Shown one piece after another: positions 24,544 through 32,000 of a DNA stretch of 32,000 nt; within the stretch, counting starts at the first letter, position 1; the number at the start of each line of letters is the position of its first letter. Origin of the DNA: Geobacter metallireducens GS-15 (lineage in GTDB: Bacteria; Desulfobacterota; Desulfuromonadia; Geobacterales; Geobacteraceae). The position numbers were made by a program, and so were the translations under genes. The DNA lies in assembly GCF_000012925.1 (NCBI RefSeq), contig NC_007517.1, positions 2,550,001 through 2,582,000 on the forward strand, written 5' to 3'. The notes beneath the pieces are model-generated. The model did no database searches, was not told the DNA's origin, and saw only the letters and a list, made by a program, of their open reading frames with translations.

Positions 24544-24707
24544 TGTGTAACCCGGCTCCGGAGGATGGGGATTTTGATCGGCATCCAATTTTGACCCTTT
24601 TCGGCGTCGAAGGGTGACCCACCACCGTTGATAACTGCTTGATATCAGGCCGCCAAGGAAGATTGACCCACTGCCTATATAGGGTCATTTTTCAAAGCCG
24701 ATTAACA
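24544..24707. mobile_element. IS21-derived miniature element / solo-end remnant
   Basis: Contains TGACCC(AC) motifs like the terminal repeats of the intact IS21 at 25647: TTGATCGGCATCCAATTTTGACCC (24574-24597), GGGTGACCCACC and GATTGACCCACT. Then the inverted GGGTCATTTTTCAAAGCCGATTAACA (24682-24707), whose complement TGTTAATCGGCTTTGAAAAATGACCC resembles the IS21 end TGTTAGCGGCAATGTAAAAATGACCC. Left boundary uncertain. Confidence 0.45.
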
Positions 24708-24740
24708 GACATCCATGAAGCGCACTACCACCATGAAGCA

Positions 24741-25652
24741 TTGCTCTTTGACAACGAGGAGAAGGAACAAGGAACCATCATCAGAAAACCCGGCTCCAGG
24801 AAGCTCTATATCCTCTTCTACTACTTCAACCGCCGGGTGGAGAAAACGACCGGCCTTGCCGACACGAAGAAGAACCGGGAGAAGGTCCGGCTCTGGCTGG
24901 ATCGGATCATCGAACGTAGGGACGCGGGTAAGCTCATCTTTGCCGATGCCTTCCCCGGCGCACCAGAAAACGAGAAGGCATACTTTGCCAAGCTGGAGGG
25001 GTGGCAGTATGCCCCGGAACCGCGGGACATCCTCTTTGGGGCGTATCTCCAGGAGTGGTATCAAAACGTCTGGAGCCATTACCCGGAGGGGACCAAGAAG
25101 GACGACTACCGGCTGATTATCGACTATTGGCTGGTGCCGTTCTTTGGGGAGATGACCTTCTTCCAGATCAGCGGGGTGGAGATTCAGAAGTTCATTGCCT
25201 CCCTCAAGTGGAAGAAGGGGACCAAGAAGGGACAACCCTTATCGAAGGCCAGGGCGAAGAATATCCTGATACCGCTACGCACCATCTGGAACGATGCCTG
25301 CGACCAATACCGTTGGGTACTCCACAACCCCTTCACCAACCTGAAGAAGCACCTTCCCAAGACCCAACCGAAACGACGGGAGGGATTCCGGTTCGATGAA
25401 TGGCGGGAATTCCTGAAGGATGTCTGGACCAAGGCGGGGAAAGCCAGCGGGATAACCGACAAGGTGCCCTATTCCATGCGCCACTCCTTCGCGGCCTGGG
25501 CGCTTACCTTGCGGATCGATCTAAACCGGCGGGTGCGGCTCATGGGCCACGGTTCCAAGAAAATGGTCTATGAGGTCTACGGGGATTACATCGACGGGCT
25601 GGAGGAGGACTTCTGGAAGATTCTGGAATACTTCGGCCGGGACTGGTGTTAG
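24741..25652 (+). pseudogene. decayed tyrosine recombinase (arm-binding DUF3596-like N-terminus): internal deletion, 3' end replaced by IS21
   Basis: KLYILFYYFNRRVEKTTGL arm domain and a core-binding domain are present. The catalytic domain retains only the distal part (YSMRHSFAAWAL, LMGHGSKKMVYEVYGDY), with no box-I Arg region. The last codon and the stop (TGT TAG, 25647-25652) come from the IS21 end. The plausible ATG at 24733 is out of frame, and the only in-frame candidate start is TTG 24741. Confidence 0.6.
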
Positions 25653-25715
25653 CGGCAATGTAAAAATGACCCACCTCGGAAATTGAAAATTGACCCACTC
25701 TTCCTGATAACCTAG

Positions 25716-27550
<1,835 letters not shown>

Positions 27551-27786
27551 CCCAGGAAGGTGGGTCATTTTTCAATTGCCGATCAACCGGTAAAGTGGGT
27601 CAATTTTCGATTGCCGTTGACACTTCGTGGAGACAAAGGCAAAAAGGTCGCCTCACCTCCTTGGATACCCTGGAAATATCTACCCGATGGTTCCTGGCTC
27701 TTATCTCCAGCTAGAACATGAACAACAAAGCCCCGGCCTTCAGTTAAAACTCTCTTAGTGAAAGTTTTGGTGAAAGTCGGGGCAAC

Positions 27787-27812
27787 AAAAAAGGAATCCC
27801 GAAGGATTCCTT
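27787..27812 (-). terminator. rho-independent terminator immediately 3' of the tRNA fragment
   Basis: Minus strand: AAGGAATCC-ttcg-GGATTCCTT followed by TTTTGTT. Begins 9 nt after the CCA end at 27822. Confidence 0.7.
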
Positions 27813-27821
27813 ATTGTTAGA

Positions 27822-27844
27822 TGGAGCGGGAAACGGGATTCGAA
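27822..27844 (-). other. 3'-terminal 23 nt of a tRNA (T-loop, T-stem 3' arm, acceptor 3' arm, CCA); probable att site of an integrative element
   Basis: Minus strand: TTCGAAT-CCCGT-TTCCCGC-T-CCA. The acceptor arm and discriminator match my memory of tRNA-Gly(GCC) (GCGGGAA...TTCCCGCTCCA). The upstream sequence cannot form a T-stem or an acceptor 5' arm, so it is a fragment, not a gene. Confidence 0.7.
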
Positions 27845-28047
27845 GGCCTGAAAGCAGAACCAGAAAAATCAGTCAAAACGAATATTTAACCTAAAATACG
27901 ACGACTTACCTTTCTCTTTGGTGTCGTTTTAAGTCCAACAAGATTCAACCGAATCAAGTGCATAAGCGACAATCCAGGAACAGATTAAACTCATTTTTGG
28001 CTTCAACACGTAAAGTCAAATATCAATCGACTTCGGTATATATAACC

Positions 28048-29079
28048 TTAAAAGTATTTATTATAAATAATATTACTTAATATTCCAAGAGCAATTGACA
28101 GCATAGAAGATATTATGAATACTACCCATTTTTTCTTCATCTTCTTTAGAACAATATTTTTGTTTTCTTGAGATTTTTTTGTCAGTAAAATGAAACTTGG
28201 TTCTCTATTATCGGCAGCTTCAGCTATAACGATCCCAATAATAATAGAAGCAAAAAGAGCTACAAATAACATGATTGCGAGTTTATTATAAAAAATGTGC
28301 CATTGACCAGAAGCATTTTGATTTATGAGGTACTCTAGTTTACTGAGCATATTGCCAATATCTGCGGATTTATTTCGTAGAATATCGGCTGCAATCTTCT
28401 GCTGTTTGTCCAAAAAATCAGAATTAGCCATAACTCCAGCAATGGCTGTTGTGATAAATAATGAACCACCCAACAAAAGGCCTATTAGCTCTGAATTTTT
28501 TCTTACAATTTTTTTGATATTTGGCTCTTTCTTTGTAATATTATTTATATGATTAGTTAACAATGCTTCAATATCAGCCCCCCACGTTCTGCCAGTGTGA
28601 TCTATACGGAAATCAATAGCATCCATGCTAAGGAATTTAATTCTAATCCCTCTTGATGCAATGATTTTATCGGTTTGGCCAAAAGAAACAGTGATTATTT
28701 GTTTTTCTGGCGCTGCCTTATCTCTGAATTTAACCAAATAAGTCCATGTTATAACTAAGCCTACAGATATAACAGGGCGTATTTCATTGTATGCACAAAA
28801 ATCAGATAAGGAGTTTTGTTTTACAGTTGATCCATCATCATAAATAGTTTTAACAGTAAATTGAACACATGTTGACGGATTCTGCTGACTTACCCGCTGA
28901 TCAATCAAATGATATAAATTAACTATATCTTCCTGATGAACTTCATAAGATCCTTCGAATTCTCTCGTAATAGTCTGAGGGGCACCAAGTAATCCCGAAA
29001 CAAATTCTTTAAAGGTTTCTGGAGTGCACGGGAGCACAACGTTAAAATTAGGACCACTTGAATCAAAGAGATCACTCAT
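28048..29079 (-). CDS. orphan protein: ~200-aa soluble N-terminal domain + 3 predicted TM helices (343 aa)
   Basis: Track ORF 28048..29127 trimmed to ATG 29079 (GGGGA upstream). Hydrophobic segments: LIGLLLGGSLFITTAIAGVMA, LAIMLFVALFASIIIGIVIAEAA, VVFIISSMLSIALGILSNIIY. No motif I recognise. A sampled 60-nt stretch is 30% GC. Confidence 0.8.
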   Translation of the reverse strand: MSDLFDSSGPNFNVVLPCTPETFKEFVSGLLGAPQTITREFEGSYEVHQEDIVNLYHLIDQRVSQQNPSTCVQFTVKTIYDDGSTVKQNSLSDFCAYNEIRPVISVGLVITWTYLVKFRDKAAPEKQIITVSFGQTDKIIASRGIRIKFLSMDAIDFRIDHTGRTWGADIEALLTNHINNITKKEPNIKKIVRKNSELIGLLLGGSLFITTAIAGVMANSDFLDKQQKIAADILRNKSADIGNMLSKLEYLINQNASGQWHIFYNKLAIMLFVALFASIIIGIVIAEAADNREPSFILLTKKSQENKNIVLKKMKKKWVVFIISSMLSIALGILSNIIYNKYF

Positions 29080-29290
29080 AATTTCCCCAATTTCTAGAAT
29101 ATTTTGGCCTTGCCGAAATTTTCTCAATTATCAATGTTTTTTTATGTTGTGAACCATCTCATCTTAGAGTTTTTTAGCATTTATATCTGAAGACAACAAA
29201 GTACGTCAATATCATTACAGGGCATGTATATCGTTTCCCTGGTTACCTCTTCTCCAAAATCACCAAATTACGCGTCTAAATATTTCAAAC

Positions 29291-29343
29291 TTGACAAAAT
29301 GTTGCATAACATTTATAAAAGTCTCAGAACATTTCGTAAATGT
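29291..29343 (+). promoter_or_regulatory. sigma70-like promoter with two palindromic operator candidates for the RHH gene
   Basis: TTGACA (29291-29296), 17 nt, TATAAA (29314-29319). The spacer is the palindrome AAATGTT-gcat-AACATTT (29297-29314). A second inverted pair, AACATTT-cgt-AAATGT (29328-29343), lies just before the SD. Confidence 0.6.
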
Positions 29344-29355
29344 CATGGAGGCATT

Positions 29356-29748
29356 ATGAACCCAAAAGATTTGGTCAAAGTTTGGGATGCACCCGACAAC
29401 TCAAAGCTTACCCCAAAGCAGATTTCCATCCGACTGCCACTTCTTGTTTCCGCGAAGATCAACGCCCTTTGCGAAATTTACCCACGAAAGACGAAAACAG
29501 AGATTATTGGGGATCTACTCTCCACGGCACTAGAGCAACTTGAGGAAGGGATGGAAAGCAAACGGGGTGAATTCATCGAGTATGAGCCAACTCGTTTCGG
29601 AAGAGTGCCAATATACGAGGATGATGGTTTGAGGGGGGTATTTAGAAATCGCACTATCAGAAACCTCCGGGAATTGGAATCGGAAGCGGGGATCACCGAA
29701 CCCATGCCGTTCCATGAATCGGTCGTCTATGGTGAGGAAGAACATTAA
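29356..29748 (+). CDS. ribbon-helix-helix DNA-binding protein with C-terminal extension (130 aa)
   Basis: Track ORF 29224..29748 trimmed to ATG 29356 (GGAGG 5 nt upstream). KQISIRLPLLVSAKINALCEIYPRKTKTEIIGDLLSTALEQL gives a strand-helix-helix pattern. Confidence 0.75.
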   Translation: MNPKDLVKVWDAPDNSKLTPKQISIRLPLLVSAKINALCEIYPRKTKTEIIGDLLSTALEQLEEGMESKRGEFIEYEPTRFGRVPIYEDDGLRGVFRNRTIRNLRELESEAGITEPMPFHESVVYGEEEH

Positions 29749-29762
29749 AGGAGGAAACAACC

Positions 29763-29945
29763 GTGAAAAATCGAGTTTTGGAGATGGATATCAGAGACCT
29801 TCCCATGCCCGTAAAGATCACTGGCAGAAACGGCAAAAGCAAGCTGTACTTACTAAAACCGTCAGAAAAAACCCAAGGAGCTTGGTTATGTGGTATCGAA
29901 GAGCCAGTTCAACAGATCATGCAGGAATCGCTTAACCGGAGGTAA
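29763..29945 (+). CDS. small hypothetical protein (60 aa)
   Basis: GTG start with AGGAGG 8 nt upstream, 14 nt after the RHH gene stop. No recognisable motif. Confidence 0.45.
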   Translation: MKNRVLEMDIRDLPMPVKITGRNGKSKLYLLKPSEKTQGAWLCGIEEPVQQIMQESLNRR

Positions 29946-30078
29946 CCTGTGGCCCCCTCGGGGGGCTACTGGTTACTAAATACGTTTCCACTGCCTTGAA
30001 GCCAGCCAATTCCCGAAAGGAAAGCAGCACAGCCATGGGCAATTTCTTAAGCGCAATTTGCGCTAAAAGGGGTTGTTT

Positions 30079-31260
30079 ATGGCTATTTTCACATCAGAGA
30101 ACAATCAAGTAGTGTCCCCCAGCATGGCGGAGTCTGTAACACGCCATGCGCAAAACCCACCTACCGGAAATTTCCAGTTCCTTGCCTGCGGCATTGATAC
30201 CCTTGATCTGGGTCTGTTCGTGTCGTGGGACGCCAACTGGAACCGCACCAAGTCGTATCTTTCCGAGAAGAAGGAAGCCTCCCAGGGAACAACCGGCCTT
30301 CTCGACAAGACCGACATCAGCCGGGAGTTTCTCCACCACGCAAGCGGCAAGGCTCCCAACTATCGCTATCAGCTCCAGTTCCCAGAATACCGCGTCTATC
30401 TCGCCATTTCCGACAAGCCCGGCGCCTCGCCGAACGTCTATGTAACGATCCTGGCGGAAGCCCTCTGGCATGTGGGCCTATCAACCCTCCTGGAGCTGTT
30501 GGAGTTCGACCTTATGAGCTTCGGCGGCACTATCGAGCGTGTCCAGCCGAGCCGGTGCGACCTCTGCGCAGACTTCAGAGTGAATCCGCCCCTCGCCTTT
30601 TCCCTTCTCGAAATCCTCCGGGTGTCCCGCAGTCGCAAGATCAGAATGATAACGAACGGCGGCGACCTGGAAACCTACTATTGCGGCTCTGCTAACTCTC
30701 CCGTCCAGGTGCGAATCTACGACAAGGGGAAAGAGATTCAGAAGAGCAACAAGCAATGGTTTCTGCCGATCTGGGGTGTGGATGATCCGGGAGGGGTCTG
30801 GCGGGTCGAGTTCCAGCTTCGCCGCTCATTTCTCCATCAGTACCGGATAAAGACCCTTGACGACCTCTGGGAGAAGGTCGGCGCAATCTGGGCGTATCTC
30901 ACAGGGGAATGGTTCTCGCTCCGGCTCCCCGACAACGAGAAGGCGGAACGGCGCACCATTCATCCCTGGTGGCTGGCGGTGCAGGAATGCCGGGACCGGT
31001 TCGGGGCCTTTCGGGATGCCAAGAGGACATTTTCCAGCGACAGCATGGAGCCGATTCAACGCACCCTTGCCCACATTATGGGAAGGATGATCTCCATTGC
31101 CGCCCAAAGCGGAATCAAGGACCGCAAGGAGGCGATCCGGTATCTGGGCCAGCTCCTTGACGAGCGCACCGATGATGACAAGTTCCGGGAGGAATACCGC
31201 AAGCGGTTAATCAGGCTCGGCTATCGCGGCACCCTGGGAGGGTCGGACGATGAGGAATGA
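30079..31260 (+). CDS. Rep_trans-like (rolling-circle type) replication initiation protein
   Basis: Track ORF 30073..31260 trimmed to ATG 30079 (AAGGGG upstream). RCDLCADF, YYCGSANSPVQVRIYDKGKE and VWRVEFQLRR resemble, from memory, the conserved blocks of the replication initiation factor family (RstA/pT181 RepC-like). Confidence 0.75.
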   Translation: MAIFTSENNQVVSPSMAESVTRHAQNPPTGNFQFLACGIDTLDLGLFVSWDANWNRTKSYLSEKKEASQGTTGLLDKTDISREFLHHASGKAPNYRYQLQFPEYRVYLAISDKPGASPNVYVTILAEALWHVGLSTLLELLEFDLMSFGGTIERVQPSRCDLCADFRVNPPLAFSLLEILRVSRSRKIRMITNGGDLETYYCGSANSPVQVRIYDKGKEIQKSNKQWFLPIWGVDDPGGVWRVEFQLRRSFLHQYRIKTLDDLWEKVGAIWAYLTGEWFSLRLPDNEKAERRTIHPWWLAVQECRDRFGAFRDAKRTFSSDSMEPIQRTLAHIMGRMISIAAQSGIKDRKEAIRYLGQLLDERTDDDKFREEYRKRLIRLGYRGTLGGSDDEE

Positions 31261-31591
31261 TAACCTTCCACCCTCCCCTGACCTTCTCACCGTGGAGCAG
31301 TTCGCCGAACGGATGCAGGTGTCCCGCACCACCATCTTTGGTTGGATCAAGGCGGGTGCCCTCAAGGAAAGGGTCCACTATATCCGACTCGGCCGCATCT
31401 TGCGCTTTCGCTGGGGGGTTGACCTTTTCTTCAACCGCCCGACACTGGCGAACAACGCGGAGGATGCCCCGGAAACGCCACCGCAGGCCACGGTCGGCAC
31501 GCTGGATTCTCAGCGGGGCGAAGCCCCGGTCAACCGCCCGCCTTTGACTTTAGAACGCCACAAGGGGCCGGTCATGAACCTTGACTATTGA
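31250..31591 (+). CDS. excisionase-type helix-turn-helix DNA-binding protein
   Basis: LLTVEQFAERMQVSRTTIFGWIKAGAL..IRLGRILRF is the typical Xis/AlpA-like HTH_17 pattern. Overlaps the Rep 3' end by 11 nt. GGGAGGG SD upstream. Confidence 0.8.
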   Translation: MRNDNLPPSPDLLTVEQFAERMQVSRTTIFGWIKAGALKERVHYIRLGRILRFRWGVDLFFNRPTLANNAEDAPETPPQATVGTLDSQRGEAPVNRPPLTLERHKGPVMNLDY

Positions 31592-31669
31592 TAATGCGAT
31601 GAAAGGCCGCTATGCTCCCCTCGGACTTAAGACGCACTGAAGGGAGGGTAACGGCCATGAGGTGACACA

Positions 31670-32000
31670 ATGAGAATGAAGAAAGGCATGCTTGCCTTGG
31701 AAGAACCAGTAAAGCAAATCGGAGCCATCAAGCGGCGCAAGGAGTCGAAGAAGCTCTACGTGGATTTCTACTACTTCGGGCGCAGGATAACGAGAAGCAC
31801 GGAACTGAACGACACCCCGGCCAATGAACGAAAGGTCCGGGCCTTTCTCGACAAGGTGATGCAGCGGATCGAGGACGGGACGTTCAAGTTTGCGGAGGCG
31901 TTCCTAGGAGCCACGGAGGAAGAGAAGGAGTTCTTCACCCAACTGGAAGGAAGGGAGTACCGGCCGGAACCACATCAGGTGGTTTTCGGAGAGTATGTGA
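31670..32000 (+). CDS. tyrosine integrase, N-terminal arm-binding part (runs off right edge)
   Basis: Hand translation from ATG 31670: MRMKKGMLALEEPVKQIGAIKRRKESKKLYVDFYYFGRRITRSTELNDTPANERKVRAFLDKVMQRIEDGTFKFAEAF... It is colinear with the N-terminus of the decayed integrase at 24741. Confidence 0.85.
   Translation, partial: MRMKKGMLALEEPVKQIGAIKRRKESKKLYVDFYYFGRRITRSTELNDTPANERKVRAFLDKVMQRIEDGTFKFAEAFLGATEEEKEFFTQLEGREYRPEPHQVVFGEYV

What the first reader, a model, noticed from the sequence alone, without database searches (positions are those of the whole stretch)
28048..29945. AT-rich orphan module on the integrative element: sensor-like membrane protein divergent from an operator-flanked RHH regulator
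The only cargo between the att fragment and the Rep/Xis/Int backbone is a strongly AT-rich block. One sampled 60-nt stretch is 30% GC, against about 63% in a sampled Etf-cluster stretch.

- The block encodes a 343-aa protein with a ~200-aa soluble N-terminal domain and three C-terminal TM helices. I recognise no motif in it.
- It is transcribed divergently from a 130-aa RHH protein, which is followed by a tightly coupled 60-aa ORF.
- The RHH promoter (TTGACA-17-TATAAA) has a perfect palindrome filling its spacer, with a second related inverted pair over the leader. The membrane gene has its own TTGACG-18-TATAAA promoter (29209-29180, minus strand).

A foreign-composition membrane effector next to a small auto-repressor, sitting as the sole cargo of a mobile element, resembles the layout of abortive-infection, exclusion or toxin-type defence genes. 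I cannot assign it to any named system.
Basis: partly seen in the sequence, partly recalled or inferred. Interest (0 to 1): 0.72.

Follow-up and report, generated by a model that had tools for sequence, protein, structure and literature searches.

The report
Swappable cargo gene on integrative element
An AT-rich, single-gene cassette for an uncharacterised membrane protein fills the swappable cargo slot of a small integrative element in Geobacter metallireducens; related elements often carry nuclease or defence-type genes in that slot, so it is a candidate new defence or exclusion gene, while the neighbouring small regulator belongs to the element and not to the cargo.

Summary
Window 28001-29500 is 31-37% GC against about 55-60% around it. 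It encodes a 343-aa protein (Gmet_2274) with a soluble N-terminal domain and three TM helices, divergent from a 130-aa RHH-like gene (Gmet_2275) whose promoter carries clustered inverted repeats.

- **The RHH is not the membrane protein's partner.** It is the regulator of the element backbone (RHH-orf60-Rep-Xis-Int). A metagenomic sibling with a 98% identical RHH carries HNH plus two other genes in place of Gmet_2274, and DNA homology starts exactly at the RHH promoter -35.
- **The cargo is a discrete cassette.** It spans about 27961-29289, lies between conserved element sequences, and fills a slot that holds variable, usually AT-rich cargo in about 45 related elements (GmrSD+HNH, ApeA-HEPN, DUF4238, methylase and others).
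- **Gmet_2274 belongs to a large unnamed family.** There are 1,261 clusters at 50% identity, with no Pfam, PADLOC, NCBIfam or PHROGs match and no PDB fold match. It occurs as a solo gene in many phyla and is always more AT-rich than its flanks.
- **Position points to defence.** One relative sits in the gpA-gpQ defence hotspot of a P2-like prophage.

My best reading is a stand-alone defence or exclusion membrane effector. This rests on position, not on any test. Interest is moderate.

The parts
27791..27812 (-). Terminator-like hairpin (AAGGAATCCTTCGGGATTCCTT followed by a T run) just outside the element. It is probably the original terminator of the tRNA gene used as the integration site.
   Evidence: Terminator scan. 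The same hairpin lies next to the att core in Citrifermentans bemidjiense locus L035.
27822..27849 (-). att core, a pseudo-tRNA. It is the reverse complement of a tRNA 3' end (TTCGAATCCCGTTTCCCGCTCCA) and marks the distal end of the element.
   Evidence: Read from the sequence. Invariant in L034 and L035. ARAGORN finds no complete tRNA in the window. Butler 2007 reports a pseudo-tRNA 6.6 kb upstream of tRNA-Gly at this end of the aromatics island.
27850..27960 (.). Conserved att-proximal backbone sequence and left flank of the cargo slot. It may hold integrase arm sites (inferred).
   Evidence: 81% DNA identity to L034 over window 27822-27966, after which similarity is lost.
27961..29289 (.). 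Variable cargo cassette of about 1.33 kb and about 33% GC. It contains only Gmet_2274 and its own promoter.
   Evidence: Bounded by homology breakpoints to L034 on the left and L119 on the right. GC values.
28048..29079 (-). Gmet_2274, 343 aa: a cytoplasmic alpha+beta N-terminal domain (about residues 15-190) followed by three TM helices. It is a member of a large unnamed family.
   Evidence: ORF. 100% match to G. metallireducens protein WP_148206083.1. Family of 1,261 clusters at 50% identity. AF2 model with pLDDT 88. Topology.
29180..29209 (-). Putative sigma-70-type promoter of Gmet_2274 (TTGACG-18-TATAAA).
   Evidence: Read from the sequence. Not statistically distinguishable from background in this AT-rich DNA.
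29291..29319 (+). Backbone promoter P_RHH (TTGACA-17-TATAAA). Homology with sibling element L119 begins here.
   Evidence: Sequence. Alignment to L119. TTGACA-containing promoter-like sequences with a nearby palindrome occur upstream of the RHH gene in all six siblings examined.
29297..29343 (.). Putative RHH operators. O1 is AAATGTT-GCAT-AACATTT (29297-29314, in the promoter spacer). O2 is ACATTT-CGT-AAATGT (29329-29343, over the leader).
   Evidence: Shuffle test. In L119, O1 is AAATGTCGCATGACATTT, a symmetric double change that keeps the palindrome. L027 has ACATTT-ATTA-AAATGT in its promoter spacer.
29356..29748 (+). Gmet_2275, 130 aa: RHH-like regulator of the element backbone.
   Evidence: 235 homologs, none with a Pfam domain. 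hhalign against classic RHH proteins gives E 3.3e-4 and probability 38%, in the register strand KQISIRLP then two helices. It co-occurs with Rep in the window, L027, L034, L035, L043, L049, L061 and L119.
29763..29945 (+). orf60, a small conserved backbone gene of unknown role. It has a GTG start, with AGGAGG upstream.
   Evidence: Homologs lie at the same position in L035-37, L043/44, L051/62, L057-59, L061, L083 and L119. No family match.
30073..31260 (+). Replication initiator, a weak Rep_trans match (rolling-circle type). The true start is probably Met18, at 30124.
   Evidence: Pfam PF02486 at E 5.4e-4, below threshold. 302 homologs, several named 'plasmid replication initiation factor'. 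M18 is nearly invariant. L034 homology begins at 30119.
31250..31591 (+). Excisionase-like HTH protein.
   Evidence: HTH_17 at 3.7e-5, TIGR01764 'excise' at 1e-4, phrog_66 at 9e-6.
31670..32000 (+). 5' part of the tyrosine integrase gene, which runs off the window.
   Evidence: 76% identical over 110 aa to the L035 integrase (Arm-DNA-bind_2 + Phage_integrase).

Best explanation
**Shown.**
- The AT-rich block is a 1.33-kb single-gene cargo cassette (about 27961-29289).
- It sits in the variable slot of a tRNA-integrating element of about 6.6 kb. The layout is att - [cargo] - P_RHH - RHH - orf60 - Rep - Xis - Int.
- The backbone is shared by many elements in Geobacteraceae and other sediment bacteria, while the slot content is exchanged.

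**Inferred from layout and analogy with CopG-RepB of pMV158-type plasmids.** The RHH-like protein binds the AAATGT/ACATTT half-sites in and just after its own promoter. It thereby autoregulates the replication, excision and integration operon. It is not a dedicated regulator or antidote of the cargo.

**Inferred from position and distribution.** Gmet_2274, expressed from its own promoter, is a stand-alone accessory membrane protein that most likely protects the host and element against phages or competing mobile elements.

**Proposed mechanism (speculative).** The strongly conserved cytoplasmic N-terminal domain (invariant Q35, R62, E125, Q127, H161, R164, W166, D169) detects an invader-derived cue. 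It transmits this through the conserved cytoplasmic PSFILLT strand between TM2 and TM3 to the three-helix membrane bundle. The bundle then oligomerises and compromises the membrane, giving abortive infection or exclusion.

**Rough likelihoods.**
- Cassette-in-hotspot architecture and backbone role of the RHH: about 0.9.
- Defence or exclusion role of Gmet_2274: about 0.5.
- The specific sensor-to-membrane-damage mechanism: about 0.25.
For: **Slot and cassette.**
- L119 has an RHH 97.7% identical plus orf60, but its cargo is HNH (240 aa) + 215 aa + 222 aa. DNA identity of 94% to the window starts at 29290.
- L034 has a Rep 95.6% identical and 81% identity at 27822-27966, but its cargo is GmrSD_N + HNH.
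- L035 (C. bemidjiense) has the same backbone with two unknown small genes as cargo.
- In about 45 Rep-family loci with enough upstream DNA, many carry divergent cargo that is variable and mostly AT-rich.
- Families found among 50 candidate cargo proteins include GmrSD_N, HNH, ApeA_NTD1+HEPN_Apea, DUF4238, DUF4145, AAA_15/AAA_21, N6_N4_Mtase and HD-CE. PADLOC hits include mREase_IV, MTase_II, PDC-S08, PDC-S58, PDC-M55C and NsnB.

**RHH as backbone regulator.**
- TTGACA-containing promoter-like sequences with a nearby palindrome occur upstream of the RHH gene in all six siblings examined (L027, L034, L035, L043, L049, L061). The half-site sequence varies between them.
- O1 shows a compensatory symmetric change in L119.
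- The half-site cluster is unlikely by chance.

**The Gmet_2274 family.**
- 50 homologs, and 1,261 representative clusters, all about 320-400 aa.
- Found from Desulfobacterota to Bacteroidota, Negativicutes, Planctomycetota, Acidobacteriota and Actinomycetota.
- The gene is more AT-rich than its flanks in 30 of 30 loci, by 12 GC points on average and up to 30 points.
- No conserved neighbour.
- In L124 and L125 it lies between gpA and the portal and terminase genes of a P2-like prophage. That is the old/tin defence hotspot described by Rousset 2022 (PMC9122126).
- In Anaerospora it lies beside AbiJ_NTD4, DUF5986 and HTH-Peptidase_M78 genes.
- In L027 it occupies the same slot of a distant RHH-Rep element that uses a serine recombinase.
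- Prior from the literature: 6 of 8 randomly chosen unknown-function loci in P4 hotspots protected against phages (PMC13586616).
Against: - No experiment exists, and no paper in the library names Gmet_2274 or its three neighbours (Gmet_2275-2277) or the accession numbers of Gmet_2274 and Gmet_2275.
- There is no hit to any PADLOC or NCBIfam defence model.
- The nearest neighbours of family members are mostly housekeeping genes such as rpsB-tsf, methylmalonyl-CoA mutase, glutamate synthase and panB. Only a handful of the 107 neighbour proteins scanned match defence models, and some of those matches (UvrD/GajB, kinase) may be housekeeping paralogs.
- No family member was found in 50,697 deposited phage genomes.
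- Only 11 were found in 2.9 million viral contigs.
- Part of the AT bias could come from the Ile/Lys/Asn/Phe-rich membrane-protein composition.
- Not all slot cargo looks defensive (ParA-like, DUF5648, unknowns).
- The RHH fold rests on a weak profile match.
- No structural analogue supports a sensor or pore function.
Confidence: 0.5

Rival explanations
1. Gmet_2274 and the RHH form a two-gene module, a membrane toxin or effector with its own auto-repressor or antidote, in the manner of toxin-antitoxin or Abi pairs.
For: The genes are divergent and only 276 bp apart. The same membrane-RHH-Rep arrangement recurs in a Burkholderiaceae MAG (L027), with the same ACATTT/AAATGT half-site.
Against: - A 97.7% identical RHH sits next to unrelated cargo in L119, and homology starts at the RHH promoter.
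- RHH homologs accompany Rep with five or more different cargos.
- About 40 family loci lack any RHH or Rep homolog.
- The half-sites are 88 bp or more from the membrane gene's -35, and only one degenerate half-site lies in its leader.
- The genes are not co-transcribed.
Confidence: 0.06
2. Gmet_2274 is an ordinary accessory membrane protein with a non-defence role, for example envelope stress sensing, signalling or a niche-specific function. It merely hitch-hikes in the element's cargo slot.
For: - Most family members are flanked by housekeeping genes.
- No defence-model hits.
- It is rare in viral collections.
- Some slot cargo in siblings is not obviously defensive.
Against: - Its distribution is sporadic across phyla, and it has foreign composition everywhere.
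- It occupies the P2 gpA-gpQ hotspot and two independent RHH-Rep element slots.
- It has no conserved metabolic or transport partner.
Confidence: 0.25
3. The gene serves the element itself. It could be a post-segregational or addiction toxin, or an entry or superinfection-exclusion factor against related elements, rather than anti-phage immunity for the host.
For: It is membrane-located, sits next to the element's replication and maintenance module, and recurs in a second RHH-Rep element (L027). Exclusion proteins of phages and conjugative elements are typically small inner-membrane proteins (general knowledge).
Against: - Most siblings of the element do without it.
- Most family members are not in recognisable elements. 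A recombinase gene lies within about 10 kb in only 3 of 29 genomic loci and 3 of 11 viral loci.
- There is no adjacent antitoxin candidate.
Confidence: 0.12
4. The N-terminal domain is a divergent CYTH or triphosphate-tunnel-like (or helix-grip ligand-binding) enzyme domain anchored to the membrane. The protein would then be a membrane-bound nucleotide or polyphosphate-processing enzyme.
For: The best Foldseek hits for the isolated domain are thiamine triphosphatase, class IV adenylyl cyclase, YgiF and an archaeal TTM (best E 1.5e-3, probability 0.87). There are many invariant charged residues.
Against: TM-scores are 0.20-0.25 with rmsd 12-14 A and no hit has E below 1e-3. The EXEXK signature of CYTH proteins (from general knowledge) was not seen in the alignment consensus or the invariant columns. 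Sequence profiles find nothing in the PDB or Pfam.
Confidence: 0.07

Closest known systems
Defence hotspots of P2-like phages (gpA-gpQ, old/tin locus) and P4-like satellites (Rousset et al. 2022, PMC9122126; Moura de Sousa et al. 2026, PMC13586616)
   Same: - A fixed slot lies between conserved backbone sequences of a small integrating element.
- Its content is swapped among close relatives, is AT-rich, carries its own promoter, and often encodes nucleases or Abi-type genes.
- A Gmet_2274 relative sits in the P2 hotspot itself (L124 and L125).
   Different: - The backbone is unrelated: RHH, orf60, rolling-circle-type Rep, Xis and a tyrosine integrase at tRNA-Gly, with no P4 primase, Psu, Delta or cos.
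- The hosts are Geobacteraceae and other anaerobic sediment bacteria.
- No helper phage is known.
- No protection has been measured.
CopG-RepB autoregulated operon of pMV158-family rolling-circle plasmids (from general knowledge)
   Same: A small RHH-type repressor gene lies immediately upstream of, and is co-oriented with, a rolling-circle Rep gene. A symmetric operator overlaps the operon's own promoter.
   Different: - The protein here is 130 aa, with extra conserved N- and C-terminal segments.
- It is not recognised by Pfam RHH models.
- The operon continues into Xis and Int.
- The Rep is of the Rep_trans type, not the RepB type.
- DNA binding is untested.
Small non-conjugative integrative elements that integrate at tRNA genes and carry cargo ('hitcher' elements reviewed in PMC11389934; tycheposons and similar, from general knowledge)
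   Same: The element is about 6.6 kb, with integrase, excisionase, a replication initiator, a regulator and a cargo position next to att. It has no transfer or capsid genes.
   Different: The family defined here by Rep and RHH has not, to my knowledge, been described. Its mode of transfer is unknown.
Single-protein or effector-type membrane defence proteins (RexB, AbiZ-like proteins, CBASS or Pycsar TM effectors such as Cap15, SLATT-domain proteins, 'Hydrolase-3TM'; from general knowledge)
   Same: A soluble cytoplasmic domain is fused to a few TM helices. The gene is carried on mobile elements, and cell or membrane damage is the presumed output.
   Different: - No sequence or fold similarity to any of them.
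- The domain order is N-terminal soluble domain followed by three TM helices.
- There is no partner signalling enzyme.
- Function is untested.

Membership tests
Ribbon-helix-helix (CopG/Arc/MetJ) regulators - for Gmet_2275 | N-terminal beta-strand followed by two helices, detectable by sequence profile | tested here: inconclusive
   No Pfam, NCBIfam or PDB sequence hit for the protein or for 40 homologs. The register is as expected: KQISIRLP as the strand, followed by two helices.
Ribbon-helix-helix (CopG/Arc/MetJ) regulators - for Gmet_2275 | Binds inverted or tandem repeats overlapping its own promoter (autoregulation) | not testable with these tools
   Candidate sites exist: four AAATGT/ACATTT half-sites at 29297-29343, seen in 0 of 2000 shuffles. 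There is a compensatory change in L119 and palindromes at sibling promoters. Binding itself needs EMSA or footprinting.
Rep_trans (PF02486) rolling-circle initiators - for the 30073-31260 gene | Match to the family profile above the curated threshold | tested here: inconclusive
   Pfam gives E 5.4e-4 and 20.0 bits against a cut-off of 29.6. One relative (P0296) carries a precomputed PF02486 hit, and several are named 'replication initiation factor' by NCBI. The catalytic tyrosine was not examined.
Mobile-element defence hotspot (as defined for P2 and P4) | Conserved flanks with different gene content in closely related elements | tested here: met
   Homology breakpoints lie at about 27960 and 29290. 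L119, L034 and L035, and about 45 further Rep loci, carry different cargo.
Mobile-element defence hotspot (as defined for P2 and P4) | Known defence systems among the alternative contents | tested here: met
   GmrSD_N+HNH, HNH, ApeA-HEPN, DUF4238, type II MTase, and PDC-S08, PDC-S58 and PDC-M55C. Some contents are not defensive or are unknown. Some of the 50 candidates probably lie beyond the element ends (Cas1, EamA).
Mobile-element defence hotspot (as defined for P2 and P4) | Cargo confers protection against phages | not testable with these tools
   Needs plaque assays.
Any named anti-phage defence protein family - for Gmet_2274 | Profile match to PADLOC-DB v2 or NCBIfam (2026) defence models | tested here: not met
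   Zero hits at E up to 1.
Type II toxin-antitoxin pair with an RHH antitoxin | Adjacent, co-transcribed genes whose pairing is conserved across genomes | tested here: not met
   The genes are divergent and 276 bp apart. The pairing is absent in about 40 family loci and is broken in L119.
CYTH / triphosphate tunnel metalloenzymes - for the N-terminal domain | Eight-stranded tunnel fold superposable on solved members, with the EXEXK motif | tested here: not met
   The best Foldseek hit is 5a65 at E 1.5e-3, TM 0.24 and rmsd 13 A. No EXEXK was seen in the alignment consensus or the invariant columns.

The most novel reading that the evidence does not exclude
Gmet_2274 founds a widespread single-gene anti-phage or anti-mobile-element system (at least 1,261 clusters at 50% identity, in more than ten phyla) that has never been named. 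Its cytoplasmic sensor domain has a fold unlike any solved structure and controls a three-helix membrane effector. The RHH-Rep-Xis-Int elements of Geobacteraceae are a previously undescribed family of small integrative elements whose att-proximal slot is a defence-gene hotspot comparable to those of P2 and P4.
Probability: 0.4. Interest if true: 0.65.

Novelty: new member of a known kind. Interest (0 to 1): 0.5.

Why it matters
- **A testable candidate.** If the family is defensive, it adds a compact, one-gene, membrane-acting immunity protein with an unrecognised fold. It can be tested directly, because the whole native cassette is 1.33 kb.
- **A place to look for more.** The element family gives a defined "look here" slot for finding accessory and defence genes in Geobacter and other anaerobic sediment bacteria. 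Defence repertoires and phage biology in these organisms are poorly known, and they matter for bioremediation and electro-microbiology.
- **A warning about guilt by adjacency.** A regulator next to a cargo gene can belong to the vehicle and not to the cargo.

Tried and rejected
- **Family libraries.** Pfam, NCBIfam, PHROGs and PADLOC scans of the 343-aa, 130-aa and 60-aa proteins gave nothing significant. The only hits were sub-threshold noise: DUF4064, DUF4184 and BamE.
- **PDB by sequence.** Profiles of both families found nothing.
- **Fold search.**
  - The full-length AF2 model (pLDDT 88) against the PDB and BFVD gave no hit with E below 1e-3. The weak hits (Wzc, TRPML, CorA, CYTH) had TM 0.3 or less.
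  - The isolated N-domain model gave the same result, with CYTH/ThTPase on top at TM 0.24. I rejected this as a membership claim.
- **RNA genes.** Rfam found nothing in 27500-30200. ARAGORN found no intact tRNA in the window.
- **Phages and plasmids.** tblastn found no phage hit. It found only remote (26% identity) Acinetobacter chromosomal hits among 'plasmid' records, again a solo hypothetical gene between housekeeping genes.
- **Literature.** Nothing for the locus tags Gmet_2274-2277 or for four accession numbers of Gmet_2274 and Gmet_2275.
- **Conserved partner gene.** None was found among the two genes on each side of the homolog.
- **RHH control of the membrane gene.** Only a single degenerate half-site (CAATGTT, 29132-29138) lies in its leader, so I did not pursue this.
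- **PD-(D/E)xK nuclease reading of D82/E125-K126.** I dropped it because no nuclease fold was retrieved.


Full report
**Origin and setting.** The window is from the Geobacter metallireducens GS-15 chromosome.
- The 343-aa protein is 100% identical to WP_148206083.1 / Gmet_2274, and the 130-aa protein is Gmet_2275.
- Butler et al. 2007 (PMC1924859) place this region at the 3' end of the 300-kb aromatics island. They note low-GC genes, an istAB transposon (Gmet_2272-2273), three integrase genes (Gmet_2271, 2278, 2279), a tRNA-Gly, and a pseudo-tRNA 6.6 kb upstream of it.
- In the window, the pseudo-tRNA is the reverse-complemented tRNA 3' end at 27822-27849. It lies next to a terminator-like hairpin at 27791-27812.
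- ARAGORN finds no complete tRNA in the window, so the intact tRNA-Gly lies beyond 32000.
- No paper in the library names Gmet_2274-2277 or the accession numbers of Gmet_2274 and Gmet_2275.

- GC is 0.31-0.37 in 28001-29500, against 0.55-0.60 on both sides.
- Per gene: Gmet_2274 0.332, the divergent intergenic region 0.322, RHH 0.476, orf60 0.448, Rep 0.577, Xis 0.605.
- The ORFs are as described, except that the RHH ATG is at 29356.
- Hydropathy gives three hydrophobic segments at residues 196-219, 261-291 and 316-339. The TM2-TM3 loop has 8 K/R against 1 D/E, which indicates N-in, C-out. The 190-residue N-terminal domain is therefore cytoplasmic.
- The RHH promoter is TTGACA (29291) - 17 nt - TATAAA. 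Its spacer contains AAATGTT-GCAT-AACATTT, and the leader contains ACATTT-CGT-AAATGT.
- One such 7-nt inverted repeat is not unusual: it occurs in 17% of shuffles. Four half-sites within 47 nt occurred in 0 of 2000 shuffles, and any hexamer in a 2+2 arrangement occurred in 11 of 500.
- The membrane gene's TTGACG-18-TATAAA exists. However, promoter-like sites are as common here as in shuffled sequence.

**The regulator belongs to the element, not to the cargo.**
- The Rep protein has 302 homologs, many in Geobacteraceae.
- Three close siblings keep the backbone but differ in the slot divergent from the RHH:
  - L034: Rep 95.6% identical, cargo GmrSD_N (524 aa) + HNH.
  - L035, Citrifermentans bemidjiense: RHH-54 aa-Rep-Xis-Int, with two unknown genes of 117 and 148 aa.
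  - L119: RHH 97.7% identical plus orf60, cargo HNH (240 aa) + 215 aa + 222 aa.
- blastn places the breakpoints precisely. L119 is 94% identical to the window from 29290 onward, starting at the -35 box, and unrelated to the left of it.
- L034 is 94.6% identical from 30119 to 32000 and 81% identical at 27822-27966, but different in between.
- The cargo cassette is thus about 27961-29289 and contains only Gmet_2274 and its promoter.
- RHH identity is uncoupled from Rep identity: L034 has RHH 55.8% and Rep 95.6%, and it lacks orf60. The element is therefore a mosaic of at least three modules: cargo, RHH(+orf60), and Rep-Xis-Int.
- O1 in L119 reads AAATGTCGCATGACATTT, a symmetric double substitution that preserves the palindrome.
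- L027 has ACATTT-ATTA-AAATGT in its promoter spacer. Other siblings have different palindromes at a similar TTGACA-containing promoter-like sequence.
- This layout resembles the CopG-RepB autoregulated operon of rolling-circle plasmids (general knowledge).
- The RHH fold itself is only weakly supported. There are no Pfam or PDB hits for 40 homologs. hhalign against classic RHH proteins gives E 3.3e-4 and probability 38%, in the expected register.

**The slot is a variable-cargo hotspot.**
- I fetched 80 metagenomic loci encoding Rep relatives.
- About 45 have at least 2 kb upstream of Rep. In many of them the region upstream of the Rep operon holds divergently oriented genes of very different size and number, usually at GC 0.30-0.42 against 0.42-0.60 for Rep.
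- Pfam hits among 50 such proteins include HD-CE+HATPase_c_3, GmrSD_N, HNH (twice), ApeA_NTD1+HEPN_Apea, DUF4238, DUF4145, AAA_15, AAA_21, N6_N4_Mtase and RNase_T.
- PADLOC hits include mREase_IV, MTase_II, PDC-S08, PDC-S58, PDC-M55C, Cas13-ApeA and NsnB.
- Some hits (Cas1, Cas4, EamA) probably lie outside the elements, because I did not map every boundary.
- Among the nearest siblings the cargo is HNH-type nucleases, a weak GIY-YIG match, a ParA-like ATPase with two unknowns, DUF5648, or orphans.
- Gmet_2274 relatives were not found in any of the 80 Rep loci.

**The Gmet_2274 family.**
- A word-indexed search found 50 homologs at 32-47% identity, all "hypothetical" and without Pfam domains.
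- An exhaustive profile search found 1,261 representative clusters with E of 1e-3 or better, 666 of them at 1e-30 or better. The best 150 are all 294-403 aa.
- The N-terminal domain carries the conservation:
  - Invariant residues: F26, L30, G32, Q35, R62, F118, E125, Q127, H161, R164, W166, G167, D169.
  - Motifs: LLGxPQ, QRxxQQN, PEKQ and HTARTWGADIEALL.
  - The only strong C-terminal motif is PSFILLT, between TM2 and TM3.
- AlphaFold models are confident: full length pLDDT 88.4 and pTM 0.77, N-domain pLDDT 86.1.
- Foldseek found no match below E 1e-3 in the PDB or BFVD. The best hits (CYTH/thiamine triphosphatase, Med18/20, SRPBCC) have TM 0.3 or less.
- In one-genome-per-species data, a single motif pattern retrieved 26 species. 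They span Desulfobacterota, Acidobacteriota, Gamma-, Beta- and Alphaproteobacteria, Planctomycetota, Sumerlaeota, Coriobacteriia, Negativicutes and many Bacteroidota.
- In 30 of 30 loci the gene is more AT-rich than its flanks, by 12 GC points on average. In Derxia the values are 0.40 against 0.70.

**Genomic contexts of family members.**
- No neighbour is conserved. The two genes on each side are mostly housekeeping.
- A minority of neighbours are defence- or mobile-element-like:
  - AbiJ_NTD4, DUF5986/PDC-S32 and HTH-Peptidase_M78 in Anaerospora.
  - RmrA/T, a DRT-type RT-helicase, a GajB-like helicase and mad6.
  - PIN and HicAB toxin-antitoxin pairs nearby.
- Two contexts are more telling:
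  - L027, a Burkholderiaceae MAG, repeats the window's arrangement (membrane gene divergent from RHH-Rep). Its element uses a large serine recombinase. Identities to the window are membrane 39%, RHH 46% and Rep 28%.
  - L124 and L125 are P2-like prophages with the order Int, C-type HTH repressor, gpA replication protein, then the family member (GC 0.35 against about 0.5), then portal and terminase on the opposite strand.
- The gpA-gpQ interval is the old/tin locus. Rousset et al. 2022 showed it to be a defence hotspot (PMC9122126).
- Moura de Sousa et al. 2026 found that 6 of 8 randomly chosen unknown-function P4 hotspot loci protected against phages (PMC13586616).
- Against a defence role: there are no hits in deposited phage genomes, and only remote Acinetobacter chromosomal hits among plasmid records.

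**Most likely function and mechanism.**
- Shown: the cassette structure, the exchange of cargo among siblings, the backbone linkage of the RHH, the size and distribution of the family, its topology, and its lack of any named relative.
- Inferred: the RHH autoregulates the RHH-orf60-Rep-Xis-Int operon through the AAATGT half-sites. Gmet_2274 acts alone from its own promoter as a defence or exclusion factor.
- Speculative: its cytoplasmic domain senses an invader cue and drives membrane damage through the three TM helices.
- Rivals:
  - A non-defence accessory membrane protein (about 0.25).
  - A function serving the element itself, such as addiction or element exclusion (about 0.12).
  - A membrane-anchored CYTH-like enzyme (about 0.07).

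**Novelty and score.**
- The kind of thing is known: a swappable, AT-rich accessory or defence cargo in a fixed slot of a small integrating element, plus a CopG-like regulator in front of a Rep gene.
- What is new is the particular element family, which I did not find described, and the cargo protein family, which is large, unnamed and of unrecognised fold.
- I rate it a new member of a known kind, with interest 0.5.
- The most novel reading not excluded is a new single-gene membrane defence system with a new sensor fold. I give it probability about 0.4 and interest 0.65 if true.

Noticed in passing
window 24639-27550: A second tyrosine integrase (Gmet_2271, 24639-25652) has an Arm-DNA-bind_2 domain and what looks like an intact C-terminal H...Y catalytic motif. 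It lies just outside the element. A complete IS21-type istAB transposon (25734-27550) separates it from the tRNA terminator and att core. C. bemidjiense (L035) also has a related integrase fragment directly before the same terminator and att sequence. The neighbourhood of this tRNA site therefore seems to collect integrases in both genomes.
   Followed up: partly
L027 6233-11011 (Burkholderiaceae MAG DATEZO010000038.1): The same membrane gene divergent from an RHH-Rep unit occurs in a distant element. That element uses a large serine recombinase instead of Xis and a tyrosine integrase, and it has no orf60. It is flanked by uvrB and aspC on one side and an IS66 on the other. Either the trio is an old module, or the same cargo was captured twice in the same slot.
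   Followed up: partly
L124 3496-10496 and L125 3573-10573 (IMG/VR viral contigs): A Gmet_2274 relative occupies the interval between gpA and the portal and terminase genes of a P2-like prophage. This is the old/tin defence hotspot.
   Followed up: yes
window 29297-29314 versus L119 2427-2444: The operator palindrome differs between the two elements by a symmetric pair of substitutions: AAATGTTGCATAACATTT against AAATGTCGCATGACATTT. The inverted symmetry is preserved.
   Followed up: partly
window 30073-30124: The Rep ORF as listed starts at TTG 30073. However, Met18 (30124) is nearly invariant in the family, many homologs are 378-379 aa, and homology to L034 begins at 30119. The true start is probably 30124. 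A second recombination breakpoint lies right at the Rep start.
   Followed up: partly
L042, L048, L050, L053, L063, L074, L075, L081, L087, L090, L093, L101-L106, L112 (directly upstream of Rep): More distant Rep relatives lack the RHH and orf60. Instead they have a same-strand gene of about 312-355 aa immediately upstream of Rep. I did not test whether these genes are homologous to one another, and I did not identify them.
   Followed up: no
Contigs carrying P0189, P0191, P0205, P0206, P0209 and P0213 (5.3-5.6 kb each): Several independent assemblies give contigs of 5.3-5.6 kb carrying close Rep homologs. This could reflect excised circular copies of such elements. Circularity was not checked.
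   Followed up: no
L123 6197-10590 (IMG/VR contig): Here the family member sits inside a five-gene AT-rich islet (GC 0.28-0.34 in a background of about 0.5), together with four unknown genes of 144, 340, 189 and 197 aa. It may be a small accessory or defence islet.
   Followed up: no
L118 6962-8047 (Acinetobacter baumannii CP040041.1): A 361-aa hypothetical protein is 26% identical to the N-terminal domain of Gmet_2274 (E 3e-10). It is again a solo gene between housekeeping genes. This shows the family reaches clinical Acinetobacter.
   Followed up: partly
L045 555-3662: One Rep-family element carries a 1,035-aa HD-CE + HATPase_c_3 protein (GC 0.36) as its cargo. It has no PADLOC match and may be another unnamed conflict-system candidate.
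   Followed up: no
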